Both the position numbers and the translations under genes were made by a program. A DNA stretch of 64,000 bases from a virus: the IMG/VR virus record IMGVR_UViG_3300014838_000020, positions 1 to 64,000 of that record; one strand, written 5' to 3'. Position 1 is the stretch's first letter; each line of letters opens with the position of its first letter. Of the stretch, positions 53,345 to 59,296 are shown piece after piece. Below the pieces are notes generated by a model. The model did no database searches and was not told the DNA's origin. It was given only the letters and a program-made list of their open reading frames with translations.

Positions 53345-53813
53345 AATCTTCTCCGTCTAAAGTTCCAGTAGCCGTTGATGGCTTATTCTTTTTATTGCGT
53401 TCTTCCCACAGTGCATTAAATAAAATGTCCTGTATCCACTTAGCTCCCTTTGAAAATCCAGTAGCTGTAATAATATTACCATTAATATTACCCTTGAACT
53501 TATCAAACAGGACATCAATTATTTCAGGTGCATCTACTCCATATCGAGCCATAAAACCTTTGATACAAGAAGTCTCTTTATCCCACTCGATAATGTAAGG
53601 GATATTATGTGTTTCTTCAAATCTCTTTGCAAAATATACTAAGAGATCTCTAGGTTTTGTTAAATCTAATTTACGTTCAGTAGAGGTTTCAACAATGGTA
53701 GGTTCGGCTTTTTCATTGTCACTATTATCGTTCTGTATCTCCCATGATTCTGGCATTCTTATTTTCCCTATCTTCTTTAAGTGACTTATTGAAAGCGTAA
53801 GAAACATTAGCAA
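53322..53813 (-). CDS. Hypothetical replication-associated protein (start probably near 53757)
   Basis: Directly upstream of the DnaC-like gene. Confidence 0.45.
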   Translation of the reverse strand: MLMFLTLSISHLKKIGKIRMPESWEIQNDNSDNEKAEPTIVETSTERKLDLTKPRDLLVYFAKRFEETHNIPYIIEWDKETSCIKGFMARYGVDAPEIIDVLFDKFKGNINGNIITATGFSKGAKWIQDILFNALWEERNKKNKPSTATGTLDGEDFVNLMGK

Positions 53814-54147
53814 AGTTTTTAACTTTGTTTTCTATTTCCTCTGCCTCATCCTTGTTCAAATCCTTGATTGATGTACCTGTTGGTGAAATTAATGTAATGC
53901 TCTCTTTAGAGATTAGATGAAAAGAATAATCATGTTCTACATCCCCATCATTTTCAGCTCCCCATACCTGTACCCAATATTCATCCAATCCAGCTAAAAA
54001 ACCTGAGATAGCATAACCATCTGCAATGATCTGAATTTTTTGTCGCTTCATAGCCCAAAGAGAAAGATTTCTTTCGAACATATCTTCCGATTCTTGAGCT
54101 AATCTTTGATGAATTCCCATTGTTGCTGTTGTTACTGTTTCTGACAT
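53725..54147 (-). CDS. Hypothetical protein (Sm/Hfq-like fold possible)
   Basis: IQII.DGY.ISGFLAGLDEY...HLISKESITLISP resembles an Sm1/Sm2 pattern. Confidence 0.4.
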   Translation of the reverse strand: MSETVTTATMGIHQRLAQESEDMFERNLSLWAMKRQKIQIIADGYAISGFLAGLDEYWVQVWGAENDGDVEHDYSFHLISKESITLISPTGTSIKDLNKDEAEEIENKVKNFANVSYAFNKSLKEDRENKNARIMGDTER

Positions 54148-54360
54148 ATTTTCCTTTACTTGTTAAAAACTAATCTTGACATTCAAGATCAATGTAATTT
54201 GTTAGAAAGAAATTAACTACTTCCATTGGATCTTTATCGGCCCAACTTTCTAGTTCACTTATATAGCCACATGCCATATGGAATAGCTTCTTGTAATCGT
54301 ATGTAGCTTCTGCTACGTCAGCACTCATTTAATACTTCTCCTCGTACTACTAATCTCTTA

Positions 54361-54777
54361 TTATTTAGTATACACTACTTCATCATCGGAGTCAAGTACC
54401 CCGGCCTCTCGAAAATCTATTTTTGCTTGGATTAAATGGCCTTTCATGTTCTTAGTTCCATACCCTCCAGGGAATAGTATAGCGTAATCAATTCCTGATT
54501 TGATCATTTCTTCATTACGTACATTGCCCCCAGCCTTACCGTACTTAGACCAGTTAGCCGGATGCGGTTCTACTGTAAAGTTATTATATGTAGCCCACAT
54601 TGCAGCTATTCGATCAACCCCACCGGCATCTCCATGAACAACAGTTATTCCTGCATCCGTTTCTTCCCAAGTTTCTTGTTCTTCACTCCACTCGTTAACG
54701 AACCATTCAGTTAATGTCTGTTCAATAAATCTATAAGCGTAAAAATCTCTTCCACCGGCAACTAATAATCTAAACAT
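54361..54777 (-). CDS. SLOG-family protein (DUF2493/YspA-like)
   Basis: LLVAGGRDF, VVHGDAGGVD, HPANWSKYGKAGG..RNEEM, FPGGYGT..M. Confidence 0.88.
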   Translation of the reverse strand: MFRLLVAGGRDFYAYRFIEQTLTEWFVNEWSEEQETWEETDAGITVVHGDAGGVDRIAAMWATYNNFTVEPHPANWSKYGKAGGNVRNEEMIKSGIDYAILFPGGYGTKNMKGHLIQAKIDFREAGVLDSDDEVVYTK

Positions 54778-54786
54778 TTTACTCCT

Positions 54787-55818
54787 TTACATATCATTAA
54801 AGATATCAAAATCCGATTGCTCATCTACAGAGTCCCAAAAATCTAGGGAATGCATTGAACCAATATTGCAAATTCTACTGGGCATGTTAAATTCTACCAT
54901 AGAAACTACCTCTTGATCACATGGATCTACAGCAATTGTCGAAGTGTCATTTCTTAACATGCTGATTAGTTCGTTAGCATCATTTATAGACTTTGCTATA
55001 TATATTCTTATATCTCCGTAAAGATTATTGATTTGAAAAGAGTTAACACCTTTTATAACATGAAGATAACGAGATATTTTTTCTTTAGTAATAAATCGTA
55101 TTAGATTTGCTTGCTGTACAAAATTTAGTTTTGATCGAAATTCTTCTATTTGTTCTCCATAGACTGAACTGTATATATCACTAATTTTAGTTAGAATTTC
55201 TTGATTTGGTTCCCCAATAAATATATAGAATTTAGGAGATAATGAACCAAGCCCATAAAAATTGAAGAAATCAAAACAAATGTTATCAATTAATGTATCT
55301 GTTATAGAGTTACTATTGACTACTCCAAAGGATAGTTTATCTTCATGAGTGTGAATTCTACGATGCTTAGTTGCTAATGTCTTATAATATTCTATAGTTT
55401 CATAATTACCAAAAACTATAATATCTGTTGCATTATCAATTGTATTTCTCCAACTAGAAGATAACTCTACTTCTTGATCAGTGCCTATGTGTACACTAGT
55501 TTTAATTTCATAAGTATTATGATTTTTAATAATATTTTCTATAATTAAAGCTTCATCCAATGATGATGGCTTTATGTCTATAGTATCTGCACCACTAAGT
55601 TGCAGTGCCAAAAATACACTTTTAGAAATTGTTAGTGGTGTACCATCTGATCCTATTAGTACTATTTTTCGTTTGGTTTTATTATTATGCTGATTAAAGT
55701 AAGGTGGTATAAAACTATTACTAATTAATCGTTCATAATCACTTTCTAAAAATTCACCAAATTGACTTAAAATTGATGAAAGATTATTATCATTATTAAT
55801 ATAATAATTATTATTCAT
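54787..55818 (-). CDS. LuxC-like acyl-CoA reductase homolog, catalytic residues substituted
   Basis: Colinear LuxC/ALDH-type motifs IKPSS, DIIVFGNYETI, KLSFGVV, D...FYGLGSLSP (family GC.SP), SRICNIGSM..FW. Confidence 0.72.
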   Translation of the reverse strand: MNNNYYINNDNNLSSILSQFGEFLESDYERLISNSFIPPYFNQHNNKTKRKIVLIGSDGTPLTISKSVFLALQLSGADTIDIKPSSLDEALIIENIIKNHNTYEIKTSVHIGTDQEVELSSSWRNTIDNATDIIVFGNYETIEYYKTLATKHRRIHTHEDKLSFGVVNSNSITDTLIDNICFDFFNFYGLGSLSPKFYIFIGEPNQEILTKISDIYSSVYGEQIEEFRSKLNFVQQANLIRFITKEKISRYLHVIKGVNSFQINNLYGDIRIYIAKSINDANELISMLRNDTSTIAVDPCDQEVVSMVEFNMPSRICNIGSMHSLDFWDSVDEQSDFDIFNDM

Positions 55819-55825
55819 ATTAATC

Positions 55826-56854
55826 TTACTTTGGCTTAATACCAGTTTTGATTATTTCATCAGATCGTCTGGTTATTTGTACTGTGCTATTACTATACTG
55901 AATGCCTAAATCATCACTAATTATGAATGGACAACTCCATACATTAGCTATATCAATAAAAGCTAAATTACCTTCAACTCCAGGTTCACATTCTTCTCCT
56001 GTAGTGGGATCTAGTACTCGTACAGAAATAGTAGGTGGCACATAATATGTGAGATTATCTCCCCATCTAAATAATTGACTTGATAGTTCAGTATTATAGT
56101 ATATCTGAATTACATCATTTGTAGGAGTATTGAAGTATTTTTTTAGCCAATCATTTAATTCAAAAAGAGTTAAATCCATCTTTGATAACTCATAGTAATC
56201 CCCAAATTGAAGAATCATTGATGTACCAGAAGTTATATCTATAATAGGATTAGAAGTTAAAGTATCTAGTGTTAACTTAAATTGATAAAATTGATTTGGT
56301 GTACCTACAATCATTAGTGGTTCATCTGATATTAAACTCTTAGAAGATGTAAATGCTTCTACCGCCTTAGGATCAGTTGGATTTACAGTCTCATAGATTC
56401 CACGAGAACCATATATTAAGAATAAATATTCCCAGATATATGATAAGAGAGAATTAGGTTTTTTATCATCGAGAAAAACAATTCTATTAGAATTACTAAT
56501 ACTTATTACACTAAAATTAAAATTACTAGTTATTGATGCTCTAAGAAATTCAGTATCTCTTAACACATGATGCTTTGGTTTATTACTCTGTGAAATGAAT
56601 TCAATTTCATTAGTAGGATCAAACCCATTAAAGTTATTTAACTGCAATTTTCTCTTAGAAAACTCATAAGAAGGTACTAATGGTATTTTACGCCAATCAT
56701 CTAATTTACCAATAGAATATTTTTTATAGTTCTTATTATGTAAACGATGTAAATCATAGAGATCTAAGGCTATATCACCAAAATTAAATTTGTCTGGATT
56801 TTTGATATACTCTTTTGTATTATTTAGTATACTATTTATTTTATCGATTTTCAT
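55826..56854 (-). CDS. LuxE-like acyl-protein synthetase homolog, catalytic motifs substituted
   Basis: F..IAL.LY....N..Y..Y...W..IPLVP...F; Y.NTELSSQ; PP...VRVLDP...G..G.LAFIDIANVWSCPFI..DDLG. Confidence 0.78.
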   Translation of the reverse strand: MKIDKINSILNNTKEYIKNPDKFNFGDIALDLYDLHRLHNKNYKKYSIGKLDDWRKIPLVPSYEFSKRKLQLNNFNGFDPTNEIEFISQSNKPKHHVLRDTEFLRASITSNFNFSVISISNSNRIVFLDDKKPNSLLSYIWEYLFLIYGSRGIYETVNPTDPKAVEAFTSSKSLISDEPLMIVGTPNQFYQFKLTLDTLTSNPIIDITSGTSMILQFGDYYELSKMDLTLFELNDWLKKYFNTPTNDVIQIYYNTELSSQLFRWGDNLTYYVPPTISVRVLDPTTGEECEPGVEGNLAFIDIANVWSCPFIISDDLGIQYSNSTVQITRRSDEIIKTGIKPK

Positions 56855-57804
56855 TGAAGTCTCTTACCAATATTAAATTTGTACCATAACAGCAAATTTT
56901 GCCAATCCTGTAATATTGTATGAAACTCTAATTGATTTAATAACTCTTTGAACTGGGGAGCCTTAAAGTCATCAGGCATAGTAGGATCAAACTTTAGATC
57001 TTCCATACTAACCGATGGGAACTCCTCTTGGTTATCTAGTTTGATTAGTTTATAAGCTAGCTCAACACTATTCTTTTGAGTTTTTATATACTCATCATTA
57101 GCTAATACATTATCAAGTGAACCATAGGTTTCCATTAAACCAGCAGCTTTAACTGGTCCAATATTTTTAGCACCAGCAATTCCGTCTGATTTATCGCCCA
57201 TTAAACTCCATAATTCTGGTAATTGTTCTGGAGTTAAATTATATTTACTAATAACAGCATCATAATCAATTATCTCTTCTTTAATATTTTTACTAAGACC
57301 CAAAGAAGGTTTCAAAACTGTAACATTGGGTCGTATAAGTTGTAACATATCATGATCCAAAGAAACTATTATTACTTCATCGAACTCATCTGCAAAATCA
57401 ATTGAGATTTTTGCAATTATATCATCTGCTTCTACACCACTGAACATCCTTTGGCATATATTTGCAGCATCCATCAAAGAATATACCATATCTCTTTGAG
57501 GAGAAAACTCATCTGGATAATCTGGATCGTTCTTTAAATTATCTTTTAATTTTTGTTGTCGTCTACGTTCACGATTAGCTTTATATTCTGGATATAAATC
57601 CCTTCGTTTTTGAGATCTACCTTTATCAAAGGCTACAATCATATGAGTTGGTTCTAAGCGTTTAGTTAAATAACTTATAGTATTTAGAAAACCATAAACA
57701 CCCCAAGTTGGTTCGTTTTTGGAGTTACGAAGATCATGTACACGTAATGACGTGTAGGCTCTCAGCAACAATGAAGTGCCATCTAGAATTAATAGCTTTT
57801 TAAT
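56851..57804 (-). CDS. 5'-3' exonuclease / flap endonuclease (PolA N-terminal, RNase H-like); probable ATT start at 57804
   Basis: (M)KKLLILDGTSLLLRAY, AFD, YPEYKANR, VEADDII, SLDHDMLQL, LMGDKSDGI.G.KNIGP..A. Confidence 0.92.
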   Translation of the reverse strand: MKKLLILDGTSLLLRAYTSLRVHDLRNSKNEPTWGVYGFLNTISYLTKRLEPTHMIVAFDKGRSQKRRDLYPEYKANRERRRQQKLKDNLKNDPDYPDEFSPQRDMVYSLMDAANICQRMFSGVEADDIIAKISIDFADEFDEVIIVSLDHDMLQLIRPNVTVLKPSLGLSKNIKEEIIDYDAVISKYNLTPEQLPELWSLMGDKSDGIAGAKNIGPVKAAGLMETYGSLDNVLANDEYIKTQKNSVELAYKLIKLDNQEEFPSVSMEDLKFDPTMPDDFKAPQFKELLNQLEFHTILQDWQNLLLWYKFNIGKRLQ

Positions 57805-57815
57805 AGTTAATATAT

Positions 57816-57844
57816 AGTATATAACATTTATGTTACTTTGTCAA
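57816..57844 (-). promoter_or_regulatory. sigma70 promoter for the exonuclease-luxE-luxC operon
   Basis: TTGACA-17 nt-TATACT; the spacer contains the inverted repeat TAACAT-nn-ATGTTA. Confidence 0.72.
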
Positions 57845-57856
57845 ATTAGCTAATAT

Positions 57857-58093
57857 TTACTGTTCTGCAGGTAACATTCCTTTGGCCCTTTTGCCTGGTA
57901 CTGGTGTCGCATGGCATTTATGTTCAACAGCAGATACGGGGATGGGAGATATGTAAACGAACTCACACTCTGCACATTTCCACTTTTTTGCGGTTTTTGA
58001 GACAACCTTCTTTTTTTCGGCATTATCCTTCACCTCTGGTAAGGGTTCCAATTTACTTTCTGTTTCTTCAATTACTGGTTTATCTGCGTTCAT
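57857..58093 (-). CDS. Small protein with CxxC...HxC motif
   Basis: WKCAEC...VEHKC. Confidence 0.55.
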   Translation of the reverse strand: MNADKPVIEETESKLEPLPEVKDNAEKKKVVSKTAKKWKCAECEFVYISPIPVSAVEHKCHATPVPGKRAKGMLPAEQ

Positions 58094-58467
58094 TATTTAT
58101 TCCTTTTCCCACTTTTAACATCCTCTTTATAGCGCCTTACTGCGGATTTTTGCATTAATTTCCTATACTTTAGATCATCTGAATGAAGTCCGTGTCCAGA
58201 AACCCAACCGCATACTTGACATCCATTGCCCTTCTCACCCTGATGTTTATGGGGAATATGCTGCGTTCCAGTTTTCATCCATTTATCACGTCCCTGACTG
58301 CCGTGACGTTGATAGTTCTTATCGTGTTCAGTGCAATAATCAGTCAAACAAGGGAATCCACAGAAATCGTAGTGGTCGTCCCCATAACCCGAAGTAAGAA
58401 CAAATGACAGTTCATTATTTGCGTTAAGAGTTTTATCGCAGGCATCACATTTTTTTTGTTCACTCAT
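58093..58467 (-). CDS. Small zinc-binding protein (TRASH-like CxxC...FCxxxC)
   Basis: CDAC...YDFCGFPCL; second H..C..C..H module. Confidence 0.55.
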   Translation of the reverse strand: MSEQKKCDACDKTLNANNELSFVLTSGYGDDHYDFCGFPCLTDYCTEHDKNYQRHGSQGRDKWMKTGTQHIPHKHQGEKGNGCQVCGWVSGHGLHSDDLKYRKLMQKSAVRRYKEDVKSGKRNK

Positions 58468-58655
58468 TATTCTGCCTCATCTTCTGGAGTGGCTACCGTT
58501 GTAAAACTATTATCACAATAGAGATTTTCATCTCTACCTTGCCAGCCCCAATGTATCCATTTCCCATATGACTTCATAATAGGAACATGACAGATTTGAC
58601 ATTCTTTAACTTCCAAGTTACTCACTCTCATTACTCTTCTCCTCGGTGGTCCCAA
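58467..58655 (-). CDS. Hypothetical protein
   Basis: CQIC...WIH...C...ATP motif. Confidence 0.45.
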   Translation of the reverse strand: MGPPRRRVMRVSNLEVKECQICHVPIMKSYGKWIHWGWQGRDENLYCDNSFTTVATPEDEAE

Positions 58656-59296
58656 TGGGGTCTGTATTTGCTAAATGGATCACTCTTCTTAACCTTCTTC
58701 TTAGTTGACTTTCTAGGCTTCACTAATGGTACTTCATGAGCCCACGGCTTCTTGCTATTGTCTATCCTAGCAGCTTTCTCTTTCTTATTCAAGACATACC
58801 ACGTCTTTTTATGGACTAGGGTAGAAAATGAATCAAACCTTAGAGTCAGTATAGCATGCTGAGAGTTGTCGATGATATTTTTTCTGTGAAGACTTGCAGC
58901 CATTTCTCGAAAATCAGCAATGCAGTACATTCTAGCGAATGATTTGCCTACTCTTAGTGGTTCAATAGAACTACCATCACTGTAGTTAAAATTCTTACGG
59001 TAATGGTGAGCCATAAATGCAGCATAAGATAAATCAAAGAACTGTGCAGCCATATATGCACTAAACCTAGGTAGATTCTCTAAGTCATCTTGACTATAGG
59101 GAGTTTTTTCTATTTCATCTAAGAATAGGACCCAATTATTGGGATACTTATTACAGTTAGGATTTAATGGATTAGTATTAGGATCATCAGAGTAGAGGCC
59201 ATCATATTTAGGGGCAGCAAGAAATCCTCCACCAGTAGTTGGTGGAGTATCCGTATCTTGATTACCATATATCTGACGATATTTTCTACTATTCAA
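58631..59296 (-). CDS. Putative MerR-like HTH DNA-binding protein
   Basis: FSAYMAAQFFDLS...P.R...RMY...D..EMA pattern. Confidence 0.45.
   Translation of the reverse strand: MNSRKYRQIYGNQDTDTPPTTGGGFLAAPKYDGLYSDDPNTNPLNPNCNKYPNNWVLFLDEIEKTPYSQDDLENLPRFSAYMAAQFFDLSYAAFMAHHYRKNFNYSDGSSIEPLRVGKSFARMYCIADFREMAASLHRKNIIDNSQHAILTLRFDSFSTLVHKKTWYVLNKKEKAARIDNSKKPWAHEVPLVKPRKSTKKKVKKSDPFSKYRPHWDHRGEE

What the first reader, a model, noticed from the sequence alone, without database searches (positions are those of the whole stretch)
54787..56854. Phage-borne luxE-luxC-like pair, intact but with catalytic signatures replaced (candidate repurposed pseudo-enzyme system)
Seen: two adjacent uninterrupted ORFs (342 and 343 aa). 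luxE overlaps the exonuclease stop (ATGA) downstream of a consensus promoter, and the pair is followed by a SLOG gene and the replication genes. The region is visibly more AT-rich than its flanks. Known: LuxE acyl-protein synthetases need the (T/S)SGT(T/S)G loop, a TGG motif, YGxTE and a C-terminal GC acyl-acceptor Cys. LuxC/ALDH-fold reductases need the GN oxyanion Asn and the Cys of GC(L/F)S. In my alignment by eye, LuxE has FISQSNKPK, QFGDY, YYNTE and a terminal KTGIKPK (no Cys). LuxC has SDGTPL instead of AGNxPL, and GSLSP; its Ser codon TCA (55243-55245) is two changes from a Cys codon, so a single read error is unlikely. Structural motifs (IDIANVWSCPFI..DDLG, KPSS, FGN.ETI, KLSF) are kept. 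Inference: both partners lost chemistry in parallel but kept their frames, suggesting a non-catalytic complex. It could be a decoy or dominant-negative inhibitor of a host LuxCE-type acyl-reductase, or a ligand sink working with the SLOG protein. No luxAB or luxD is present.
Basis: partly seen in the sequence, partly recalled or inferred. Interest (0 to 1): 0.85.

Follow-up and report, generated by a model that had tools for sequence, protein, structure and literature searches.

The report
Orphaned, half-dead LuxE/LuxC pair in phage
A peat-soil phage keeps two genes related to the LuxE/LuxC acid-reducing enzymes; related phages use the intact pair beside genes for the DNA base 7-deazaguanine, but this lineage lacks those genes here and LuxE has lost its ATP-using site, yet selection still preserves both genes.

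Summary
Two intact ORFs (342 and 343 aa, minus strand) are real but distant LuxE and LuxC relatives. The LuxE-like match is by Pfam and a full-length profile hit to PDB 7XC6 chain E. The LuxC-like match is by fold, with 7XC6 chain A as best hit.

In about 20 close relatives the LuxE-like protein has lost three things:
- the phosphate loop (3-residue deletion);
- the GGWK lysine;
- the C-terminal acyl-cysteine.

Sister phages (35-40% identity) keep all three.

The key new result is context. All sister loci carry DpdA-like, exonuclease, LuxE, LuxC, class-III aminotransferase, QueD, QueE, FolE, Dcd, and no QueC, QueF or TGT. That fits a carboxylate-to-aldehyde-to-amine branch from 7-carboxy-7-deazaguanine. 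The window's clade keeps only exonuclease, LuxE* and LuxC*.

The "parallel loss" reading is only half right. The LuxC-like Cys and Asn are also missing in most sister phages whose LuxE is intact.

Both genes remain under purifying selection (dN/dS 0.11-0.26), as strong as in the sister clade. The residues LuxE* retains lie in segments that align to LuxE's LuxC-contact regions.

Best reading: an orphaned pathway remnant kept as a non-adenylating LuxE*-LuxC* complex of unknown role.

This scan earlier noted the intact aminotransferase/LuxE/LuxC/que module in at least 8 bacterial genomes, but not this degenerate phage form.

The parts
57816..57844 (-). Promoter-like site TTGACA-17-TATACT upstream of the exonuclease-LuxE*-LuxC* operon
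   Evidence: Best match (11 of 12) in the scan of 54000-58800. This is a consensus match only.
56851..57771 (-). 5'-3' exonuclease (FEN/RNase H-like). Its stop overlaps the LuxE* start.
   Evidence: Pfam 5_3_exonuc_N E=1.8e-35 and 5_3_exonuc E=3.5e-15. ATGA overlap. It lies directly upstream of the LuxE-like gene in both phage clades.
55826..56854 (-). LuxE* : LuxE-like protein of 342 aa, a PaaK/LuxE-type adenylase fold with a degenerate active site
   Evidence: Pfam LuxE 39.5 bits against a cut-off of 24.9. The family profile hits 7xc6_E at E=5e-22 over residues 26-343. AF2 model pLDDT 81.7, with top fold hits ClxA, PaaK1 and 3hgu. dN/dS 0.11-0.26.
56567..56593 (-). Relic of the phosphate loop (SQSNKPKHH) with a 3-residue deletion
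   Evidence: Sister phages read SSGTTQGDKSKH and Photobacterium LuxE reads SSGTSGVKSH at this place. Positions 89-91 are variable inside the window's clade.
56183..56209 (-). Relic of the GGWK motif (QFGDYYELS); the catalytic Lys is lost
   Evidence: Sister phages read ETGGWKGR and LuxE reads GGGWK. K238A abolishes Photobacterium LuxE activity (PMC9157457).
55829..55849 (-). C-terminal tail KTGIKPK without the acyl-accepting Cys
   Evidence: Sister phages read EKGCSL and LuxE reads KGC364xLS. In the window's clade the Cys position is I or V.
54787..55818 (-). LuxC* : short LuxC-like / ALDH-fold protein of 343 aa
   Evidence: Pfam LuxC only E=0.09 for this protein, but 28.3 bits against a cut-off of 21 for its sister-clade homologue. 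AF2 model pLDDT 74.7, with best Foldseek hit 7xc6_A LuxC at E=2.8e-10, followed by ALDHs. dN/dS 0.17-0.25.
55243..55245 (-). Ser192 codon TCA at the position of the LuxC/ALDH catalytic Cys
   Evidence: Aligns to the Cys of the GCLSP motif in 30-odd LuxC-family proteins, and to the active-site position of ALDH 6k0z.
55642..55644 (-). Gly59 at the position of the LuxC/ALDH 'AGN' Asn
   Evidence: MAFFT alignment with LuxC-family representatives; coordinates checked.
54361..54777 (-). YAcAr/SLOG gene, a neighbour that is not a conserved partner
   Evidence: Pfam YAcAr E=1.4e-12 and phrog_289. Absent from L013 and from all sister loci. It is the least constrained of the seven genes compared, with dN/dS up to 0.37.

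Best explanation
The pair is the orphaned remnant of a two-protein carboxylate reductase that, in sister phages, belongs to a 7-deazaguanine DNA-modification cluster.

In the sister phages, the inferred pathway runs as follows:
- The intact LuxE-like enzyme activates the carboxyl group of 7-carboxy-7-deazaguanine (the QueE product) with ATP and loads it on its own C-terminal Cys.
- The LuxC-like partner reduces it to the aldehyde with NAD(P)H.
- The adjacent class-III aminotransferase makes the aminomethyl base (preQ1).
- A DpdA-like transglycosylase puts that base into DNA.

In the window's clade:
- The DpdA-like gene and the aminotransferase-QueD-QueE-FolE-Dcd block are absent from this locus (shown).
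- LuxE has lost its phosphate loop, catalytic Lys and acyl-Cys (shown).
- It therefore can no longer adenylate or carry an acyl group (inferred).
- The regions LuxE* keeps align to LuxE's LuxC-contact segments, and LuxC* is nearly unchanged, including its cofactor-type motifs (shown by alignment).
- Both genes are still co-transcribed and coupled with the replication exonuclease and are under purifying selection.

The pair is therefore most likely kept as a LuxE*-LuxC* complex. In it, LuxE* would be a non-catalytic partner of a nucleotide-cofactor-binding LuxC*, serving a role that needs no adenylation. That role could be ligand binding, scaffolding or regulation in the early/replication programme. 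It is not known.
For: Homology:
- Pfam LuxE above threshold.
- Family profile to 7xc6_E at E=5e-22.
- The LuxC-like model's best fold match is 7xc6_A.

Loss confined to one clade:
- Twenty window-clade sequences lack the phosphate loop, the GGWK Lys and the GC Cys. All 11 sister LuxE-like sequences aligned (6 database clusters plus 5 loci) keep them.
- K238A kills Photobacterium LuxE, and Cys364 is its acyl site (PMC9157457).

Context:
- Every sister locus (about 7 distinct lineages) has DpdA-like, exo, LuxE, LuxC, aminotransferase, QueD, QueE, FolE, Dcd.
- Every window-clade locus examined (the window plus 5 others, one cut off inside the LuxE-like gene) has only exo, LuxE*, LuxC* and sometimes SLOG.
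- The 287-aa upstream protein matches an annotated DpdA of Flavobacterium phage immuto at E=6e-7, and a cluster carrying Pfam DpdA.
- Sister records lack QueC, TGT and QueF.
- FolE is present in 4 of 4 sister records searched and absent from the window's 75-kb record.
- The aminotransferase falls among semialdehyde/omega-transaminases.

Selection:
- dN/dS is 0.11-0.26 for LuxE* and 0.17-0.25 for LuxC*. The sister clade gives 0.14-0.31 and 0.09-0.29.
- More than 20 full-length homologues exist for each protein.

Retention map:
- 54 of 111 sister-invariant LuxE positions are kept. They concentrate at residues 25-61 and 279-317, which align to LuxE segments 33-91 and 290-338, the parts seen at the LuxC interface.
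- LuxC* keeps 40 of 58 invariant positions, plus IKPSS and FGNYETI.
Against: - The window's record is only about 48% of the genome, so que genes could lie in the unsampled half.
- The link between motif loss and gene loss is phylogenetically a single event.
- No chemistry of the sister-clade enzymes has been measured. Their LuxC-like partner mostly lacks the canonical Cys and always lacks the Asn, so even the ancestral reduction step is inferred.
- LuxE* keeps the ribose-binding Asp (DDLG), the motif Glu (YYNTE) and the Arg pair (TRRS), so some nucleotide binding cannot be excluded.
- Binding between LuxE* and LuxC* is inferred from conservation only.
Confidence: 0.55

Rival explanations
1. 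This is an enzyme-pseudoenzyme pair with a new substrate. LuxC* is still an NAD(P)H-dependent oxidoreductase that works without the ALDH Cys, as in most sister phages. Dead LuxE* survives only as its stabilising or activating subunit.
For: - LuxC* keeps 69% of sister-invariant positions and the cofactor-type motifs IKPSS and FGNYETI.
- The Cys is dispensable across the sister clade.
- dN/dS for LuxC* equals that of the sister clade.
Against: - No acyl donor is left once LuxE* has lost adenylation and its Cys.
- No new partner gene is conserved next to the pair.
- Both the ALDH oxyanion Asn and the Cys are missing.
Confidence: 0.2
2. The pair is still a working carboxylate reductase that uses non-canonical residues. 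It acts with deazaguanine genes located in the half of the genome that the record does not cover.
For: - The record is 48% complete.
- Selection is as strong as in the sister clade.
- The ribose-binding Asp, the motif Glu and the Arg pair are retained.
Against: - Three-residue deletion and variable sequence in the phosphate loop, a lost Lys238 equivalent and a lost acyl-Cys.
- Both flanks of the cluster are deleted in all window-clade loci that reach them.
- None of the best 120 QueE relatives sits on a contig with the length of a window-clade contig. This is a weak test.
Confidence: 0.12
3. This is a decoy or dominant-negative. LuxE* and LuxC* bind and poison a host LuxE/LuxC-type preQ1 module, or soak up a deazaguanine base, to disturb host queuosine or deazaguanine-based defence.
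For: - The LuxC-contact regions of LuxE* are the best conserved parts.
- Earlier notes of this scan report LuxE/LuxC/aminotransferase modules next to que genes in several bacterial phyla (unchecked AI notes).
Against: - The phage encodes both partners, which would occupy each other.
- The host is unknown.
- No match to known defence families was found.
- No direct evidence of any kind exists.
Confidence: 0.08
4. These are decaying pseudogenes or function-less leftovers.
For: - The pair is the most AT-rich stretch of the region, with the lowest GC3. This dip is absent in sister phages.
- LuxE* has changed at half of the formerly invariant positions.
Against: - Open frames in more than 20 homologues down to 61-65% identity.
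- dN/dS 0.11-0.26 with synonymous divergence of about 0.4 to above 2, saturated in the most distant pairs.
- 28 formerly invariant LuxE positions are re-fixed to a new residue.
Confidence: 0.03

Closest known systems
Photobacterium phosphoreum LuxC-LuxE fatty acid reductase (PDB 7XC6; PMC9157457)
   Same: - Two adjacent genes, one an adenylase lacking the ANL C-terminal subdomain and one an ALDH-fold reductase.
- Profile match to chain E (E=5e-22) and best fold match to chain A.
- The segments that align to the LuxC-contact parts of LuxE are conserved.
   Different: - No phosphate loop, no Lys238 equivalent and no Cys364 in LuxE*.
- No Cys296 and no AGN Asn in LuxC*, which is also about 135 residues shorter.
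- No luxA, luxB or luxD.
- The score is far below the NCBIfam LuxE equivalog cut-off (31 against 550 bits).
- The pair sits in a phage replication operon.
Sister-clade phage cluster: DpdA-like, exo, LuxE, LuxC, class-III aminotransferase, QueD, QueE, FolE, Dcd (IMG/VR and peat/lake metagenome loci L001-L011, L018-L020)
   Same: The exo, LuxE-like, LuxC-like and Hfq-like genes are orthologous at 35-46% identity, in the same order and with the same coupling to the exonuclease.
   Different: The sister clade keeps the LuxE catalytic motifs and the flanking deazaguanine genes. The window's clade has neither, and it carries a SLOG gene at the place of the que block.
Known phage 7-deazaguanine DNA-modification pathways (Hutinet 2019, PMC6884629; Cui 2023, PMC10516641), for example Flavobacterium phage immuto (MW353176)
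   Same: The sister clade shares FolE, QueD, QueE, a DpdA-type gene and a nucleotide kinase with these clusters.
   Different: - Known routes go from CDG through QueC (nitrile) and QueF.
- Neither paper names LuxE, LuxC or an omega-aminotransferase.
- The sister clade lacks QueC and QueF.
- The window's clade lacks the pathway genes altogether in the sequence held.
PaaK / ClxA / 3hgu-type aryl-acid adenylases
   Same: These are the best structural matches of the LuxE* model, with TM 0.60-0.65. They activate aromatic or heteroaromatic carboxylic acids, the class to which CDG belongs.
   Different: Those enzymes have intact ATP-binding loops, and LuxE* does not. Sequence identity is 12-16%.
Aminotransferase + LuxE-like + LuxC-like modules beside queD/queE in bacteria, noted earlier by this scan
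   Same: The same three-enzyme logic and the same proposed substrate as the sister-clade phage cluster.
   Different: - Those are bacterial, presumably for tRNA queuosine, and catalytically intact.
- They are unchecked AI notes.
- I tested the idea only on the phage sister clade.

Membership tests
LuxE acyl-protein synthetase (PF04443) | Pfam model above the gathering score | tested here: met
   39.5 bits against a cut-off of 24.9, though only residues 170-321 are matched. The sister homologue matches full length at 49.9 bits.
LuxE acyl-protein synthetase (PF04443) | Full-length similarity to a solved LuxE | tested here: met
   The profile of 26 family members hits 7xc6_E at E=5.1e-22, positions 26-343 against 40-366.
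LuxE acyl-protein synthetase (PF04443) | ANL phosphate loop (S/T)SGT(S/T)G | tested here: not met
   SQSNKP with a 3-residue deletion, variable within the clade.
LuxE acyl-protein synthetase (PF04443) | Catalytic Lys of GGGWK (Lys238 in P. phosphoreum) | tested here: not met
   QFGDYYE in the window. The Lys is absent in all 20 clade members.
LuxE acyl-protein synthetase (PF04443) | C-terminal acyl-accepting Cys (KGC364) | tested here: not met
   The protein ends KTGIKPK. The Cys position is I or V in the clade.
LuxE acyl-protein synthetase (PF04443) | Orthology to lux-operon LuxE (NCBIfam equivalog NF052244) | tested here: not met
   31.2 bits against a cut-off of 550.
LuxC acyl-CoA reductase (PF05893) | Pfam model above the gathering score | tested here: not met
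   12.1 bits against a cut-off of 21, E=0.09. The sister homologue passes at 28.3 bits.
LuxC acyl-CoA reductase (PF05893) | LuxC/ALDH fold | tested here: met
   The AF2 model's best Foldseek hit is 7xc6_A (E=2.8e-10, 17% identity), followed by many ALDHs.
LuxC acyl-CoA reductase (PF05893) | Catalytic Cys of GCLSP (Cys296) | tested here: not met
   Ser192, codon TCA. Also absent in 20 of the 28 sister-clade proteins tabulated.
LuxC acyl-CoA reductase (PF05893) | AGN Asn (ALDH oxyanion Asn) | tested here: not met
   Gly59 in the window. The Asn is absent in the entire short-form family.
LuxC acyl-CoA reductase (PF05893) | Cofactor-domain motifs (KxSS; G-x-x-ET-I/V) | tested here: met
   IKPSS and FGNYETI align to VKxSS and YGxDETI of LuxC-family proteins. 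Actual NADPH binding was not tested.
Phage 7-deazaguanine DNA-modification cluster | FolE, QueD, QueE and a DpdA-type transglycosylase in the genome | tested here: not met
   None occur in the 75-kb record. All are present in sister loci. Caveat: the record is about 48% complete.
Pseudoenzyme (dead member of an enzyme family kept by selection) | Homology to an enzyme family, loss of essential catalytic residues, and purifying selection | tested here: met
   Met for LuxE*. For LuxC* the losses predate the clade, so its status is open.
Pseudoenzyme (dead member of an enzyme family kept by selection) | Measured absence of catalytic activity | not testable with these tools
   Needs enzyme assays.

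The most novel reading that the evidence does not exclude
The dead LuxE* and its LuxC* partner have been re-used as a binding device for a 7-deazaguanine base or for a host LuxE/LuxC-type preQ1 module. A phage that gave up modifying its own DNA would then still interfere with host queuosine synthesis or with deazaguanine-dependent defence, by sequestration or subunit poisoning. By implication, the intact pair in sister phages would be the core of an undescribed QueC/QueF-free, carboxylic-acid-reductase-plus-transaminase route to preQ1 in phage DNA.
Probability: 0.1. Interest if true: 0.85.

Novelty: new variant of a known kind. Interest (0 to 1): 0.62.

Why it matters
- It is a clean natural case of an enzyme pair left behind when its pathway is absent. 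One partner is visibly stripped of its ATP chemistry, yet it stays as constrained as its active relatives, which points to a second, unknown role worth finding.
- The comparison that explains it also exposes something larger. A whole group of roughly 130-160-kb environmental phages places an intact LuxE/LuxC pair and an omega-aminotransferase inside a FolE-QueD-QueE-DpdA cluster that has no QueC or QueF.
- If that cluster makes preQ1 from 7-carboxy-7-deazaguanine through an aldehyde, it is a new biosynthetic route to a DNA and tRNA base. No paper found in the held library mentions it.
- The route is directly testable with purified proteins or by complementing E. coli queC or queF mutants.

Tried and rejected
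- Complex prediction of LuxC* with LuxE* gave no verdict (score 0.00). It is not used as evidence either way.
- Metagenome contigs of the window's clade (131 kb, 98 kb) could not be searched whole.
- GenBank phages gave no DNA or protein match to the pair or to the sister LuxE. PHROGs and PADLOC gave no family for either protein.
- A fingerprint test used a QueE profile search and looked for hits on contigs whose lengths match window-clade contigs. None was found among the best 120 of 7011 hits. This is only a weak negative.
- Contexts of the intermediate short LuxC-like families (P0083-P0096) were not found in IMG/VR or species genomes.
- One bacterial LuxE-like locus (Alistipes MAG, L029) has no que genes nearby and was not pursued.
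- The DpdA-like protein has no Pfam or PDB sequence match. Its assignment rests.
- RNA libraries: short near-identical contigs from two studies lie on LuxE*, LuxC*, the exonuclease and SLOG. Shares are small and DNA carry-over cannot be excluded, so this is at most a hint of transcription.
- The LuxC tree (quick search only) shows a long stem for the window's clade. A three-taxon distance estimate from the BLAST identities suggests only a modest excess over the exonuclease (about 1.4-fold for LuxE, 1.2-fold for LuxC), so I do not claim a burst.
- The thymidylate-synthase family (a different base modification) is absent in both clades.
Full report
**1. Observation**

The two ORFs exist as described. 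The LuxE-like gene is at 55826-56854 (minus strand, 342 aa). The LuxC-like gene is at 54787-55818 (minus strand, 343 aa).

- The LuxE-like start overlaps the stop of a 5'-3' exonuclease gene (56851-57771) as ATGA.
- The strongest promoter-like site of the region, TTGACA-17-TATACT at 57844-57816, lies just upstream of the exonuclease.
- Downstream lie a YAcAr/SLOG gene, an Hfq-like gene, and DnaC-like and DnaB-like genes.
- The pair is the most AT-rich part of the region. GC is 0.28 and GC3 is 0.15-0.16, against GC3 of 0.20-0.32 in neighbouring genes.
- All quoted motifs and the TCA codon at 55243-55245 are present.
- The record behind the window is a 75,389-base virus contig, estimated to be 48% complete.

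**2. Identity of the two proteins**

The LuxE-like protein:
- It passes the Pfam LuxE threshold (39.5 against 24.9 bits), over its C-terminal half only.
- A profile of 26 family members matches Photobacterium LuxE (7xc6_E) at E=5e-22 over nearly its whole length.
- Its AF2 model (pLDDT 81.7) is closest to PaaK-type aryl-acid adenylases: ClxA, PaaK1 and 3hgu.

The LuxC-like protein:
- It misses the Pfam LuxC threshold (E=0.09).
- Its AF2 model (pLDDT 74.7) has LuxC (7xc6_A) as best structural match at E=2.8e-10, followed by aldehyde dehydrogenases.
- Its sister-clade homologues pass the Pfam LuxC threshold.

Neither protein matches any PHROG, any GenBank phage or any PADLOC family.

**3. What is lost, and in whom**

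Database searches give two groups. A close clade has about 20 sequences at 61-85% identity. A sister clade lies at 30-40% identity.

In the LuxE alignment:
- The sister clade reads SSGTTQGDKSKH, ETGGWKGR and EKGCSL. These are the same elements as SSGTSGVKSH, GGGWK and KGC364 of Photobacterium LuxE.
- The window's clade reads S-x-x-x-KP-KHH with a three-residue deletion, QFGDY-x-E, and a Cys-free tail.
- In Photobacterium LuxE, K238A abolishes activity and Cys364 is the acyl site (PMC9157457).
- 'YYNTE' is not a loss, because true LuxE has FNQVE there and the Glu is kept.

For LuxC-like I aligned both clades with intermediate short forms and with about 30 LuxC-family representatives from the exhaustive profile search:
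- True LuxC proteins have AGN and DQQGCLSP.
- All short forms of about 350 aa lack the Asn.
- Intermediate families keep the Cys.
- In the sister clade only 8 of the 28 proteins tabulated keep the Cys. The others have S, I, A, L, F, T or R.
- The window's clade has S or T.
- The RIC motif is family-wide, so it is not a substitute nucleophile.

LuxC-like therefore lost the canonical residues before the two phage clades split, and independently of LuxE's state. The losses were not parallel.

**4. Context, the main new result**

In every sister locus (about seven distinct lineages, with LuxE 42-100% identical among them) the gene order is the same:
- a 287-aa protein;
- the exonuclease;
- LuxE;
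- LuxC;
- a class-III aminotransferase of the semialdehyde/omega type;
- QueD;
- a QueE-like radical-SAM protein;
- FolE;
- a dCTP-deaminase-like protein;
- Hfq-like.

UvdE, an Amidoligase_2 protein and a thymidylate-kinase-like protein often lie upstream.

The 287-aa protein has no Pfam hit. It matches the annotated DpdA (DNA guanine transglycosylase) of Flavobacterium phage immuto at E=6e-7. By language-model features and predicted structure it also resembles a cluster in which 17% of members carry Pfam DpdA.

Five sister records, 61-84% complete, contain no QueC, no TGT-family match and no QueF.

Known phage pathways go from CDG through QueC and QueF (PMC6884629, PMC10516641). An adenylase, a reductase and an omega-aminotransferase are what is needed to turn the carboxyl group of CDG into the aminomethyl group of preQ1. 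This route is an inference from gene content. I found no paper describing it in the held library.

Earlier notes of this scan proposed the same route for bacterial aminotransferase/LuxE/LuxC modules beside queD and queE in at least 8 genomes. I read those notes after reaching this reading, and they are unchecked.

**5. The window's clade**

- All window-clade loci examined (the window plus L012, L013, L014, L016 and L017, the last cut off inside the LuxE-like gene) have only exonuclease, LuxE*, LuxC*, an optional SLOG gene and Hfq-like. Both flanks of the sister cluster are missing wherever the locus reaches them.
- The 75-kb record has no homologue of the aminotransferase, QueD, QueE, FolE, Dcd or the DpdA-like protein.
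- SLOG occupies the place of the que block. It is absent from L013 and is the least constrained gene of the set, so it is not a conserved partner.

**6. Selection**

Nei-Gojobori estimates over six loci per gene:

| Gene | dN/dS |
|---|---|
| LuxE* | 0.11-0.26 |
| LuxC* | 0.17-0.25 |
| exonuclease | 0.05-0.15 |
| Hfq-like | 0.10-0.32 |
| SLOG | 0.10-0.37 |
| DnaB/DnaC-like | 0.03-0.09 |

The sister clade gives 0.14-0.31 for LuxE and 0.09-0.29 for LuxC. Synonymous sites are near saturation in many pairs, so these values are rough. Decay is nevertheless excluded, and there is no clear relaxation relative to the active relatives.

The GC3 dip is specific to the window's clade.

**7. What is kept**

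- Of 111 positions invariant in 11 sister LuxE sequences, 54 are unchanged in the window's clade, 28 are fixed to a new residue and 29 have become variable.
- The changed positions cluster at 89-94, 132-141, 183-191, 212-224, 250-255 and 336-342. These include the phosphate loop, the GGWK region and the tail.
- The unchanged positions concentrate at 25-61 and 279-317. These align to LuxE residues 33-91 and 290-338, the segments resolved at the LuxC interface in 7XC6.
- The Arg pair (TRRS) that aligns with R354/R355, of which R354 salt-bridges to LuxC, is also kept.
- LuxC* keeps 40 of 58 sister-invariant positions and the cofactor-type motifs IKPSS and FGNYETI.

This pattern fits a LuxE* that still docks on LuxC* but no longer adenylates.

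**8. Explanation and rivals**

Best reading (0.55): the pair is an orphaned remnant of a deazaguanine-pathway carboxylate reductase, kept as a non-adenylating LuxE*-LuxC* complex with an unknown role in the early/replication operon.

Rivals:
- LuxC* is still a redox enzyme with LuxE* as a dead subunit (0.20).
- The pair is still active, with que genes elsewhere in the unsampled half of the genome (0.12).
- The pair is a decoy or a sink for host LuxE/LuxC-type modules or deazaguanine bases (0.08).
- The genes are junk (0.03).

Shown: homology, motif states, gene orders and selection. Inferred: the CDG-to-preQ1 chemistry of the sister clade, the loss of activity in LuxE*, and complex formation.

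**9. Occurrence and expression**

- Near-identical DNA occurs in peat and permafrost metagenomes from ten or more studies.
- Short near-identical contigs in metatranscriptome libraries of two studies lie on LuxE*, LuxC*, the exonuclease and SLOG. This is only a hint of transcription.

**10. Verdict**

The object is a new, degenerate variant of the LuxE/LuxC kind. The more important lead is the intact cluster in sister phages.

Noticed in passing
L018:4180-12178 (also L001, L003-L011, L020): Sister phages carry a conserved nine-gene cluster: DpdA-like, exonuclease, LuxE, LuxC, class-III aminotransferase, QueD, QueE, FolE, Dcd. Their 61-84% complete records hold no QueC, QueF or TGT. This is a candidate nitrile-free route from 7-carboxy-7-deazaguanine to preQ1 for DNA modification.
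   Followed up: partly
sister-clade LuxC-like proteins P0054-P0081: The residue at the LuxC/ALDH catalytic Cys position is polymorphic. It is Cys in 8 of 28 proteins and S, I, A, L, F, T or R in the rest. Their LuxE partners keep all catalytic motifs wherever sampled, so covalent catalysis by LuxC may be dispensable in this family.
   Followed up: partly
L018:876-4150: Upstream of the sister cluster lie a thymidylate-kinase-like protein, UvdE (UV endonuclease) and an Amidoligase_2 protein. All are absent from the window's clade at this position.
   Followed up: no
window 53725-54147 (-): A phage Hfq-like protein (Pfam Phage_Hfq, E=5e-9) is conserved in both phage clades immediately after the variable block.
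   Followed up: no
window 54750-57000: The GC3 dip (0.15-0.16) over the LuxE*/LuxC* genes is seen in the window's clade (strong in the window and L012, weaker in L016). It is not seen in sister phages, where the pair has the same composition as its neighbours.
   Followed up: partly
window 57857-58655 (-): Three small Cys-rich (zinc-ribbon-like) ORFs lie between the operon's promoter region and the next conserved gene. In sister phages about 4 kb of other genes sit here instead.
   Followed up: no
L029:6800-8933: An Alistipes MAG carries a LuxE-like gene (27-29% identical to the sister phage LuxE) next to a 380-aa ORF, without que genes nearby. It probably has a different substrate.
   Followed up: no
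L022 (MW353176.1 25189-43494): Flavobacterium phage immuto has QueD, QueE, FolE, DpdA, a formyltransferase, thymidylate kinase and QueF in one block. Its DpdA is the nearest annotated relative of the sister clade's 287-aa protein.
   Followed up: partly
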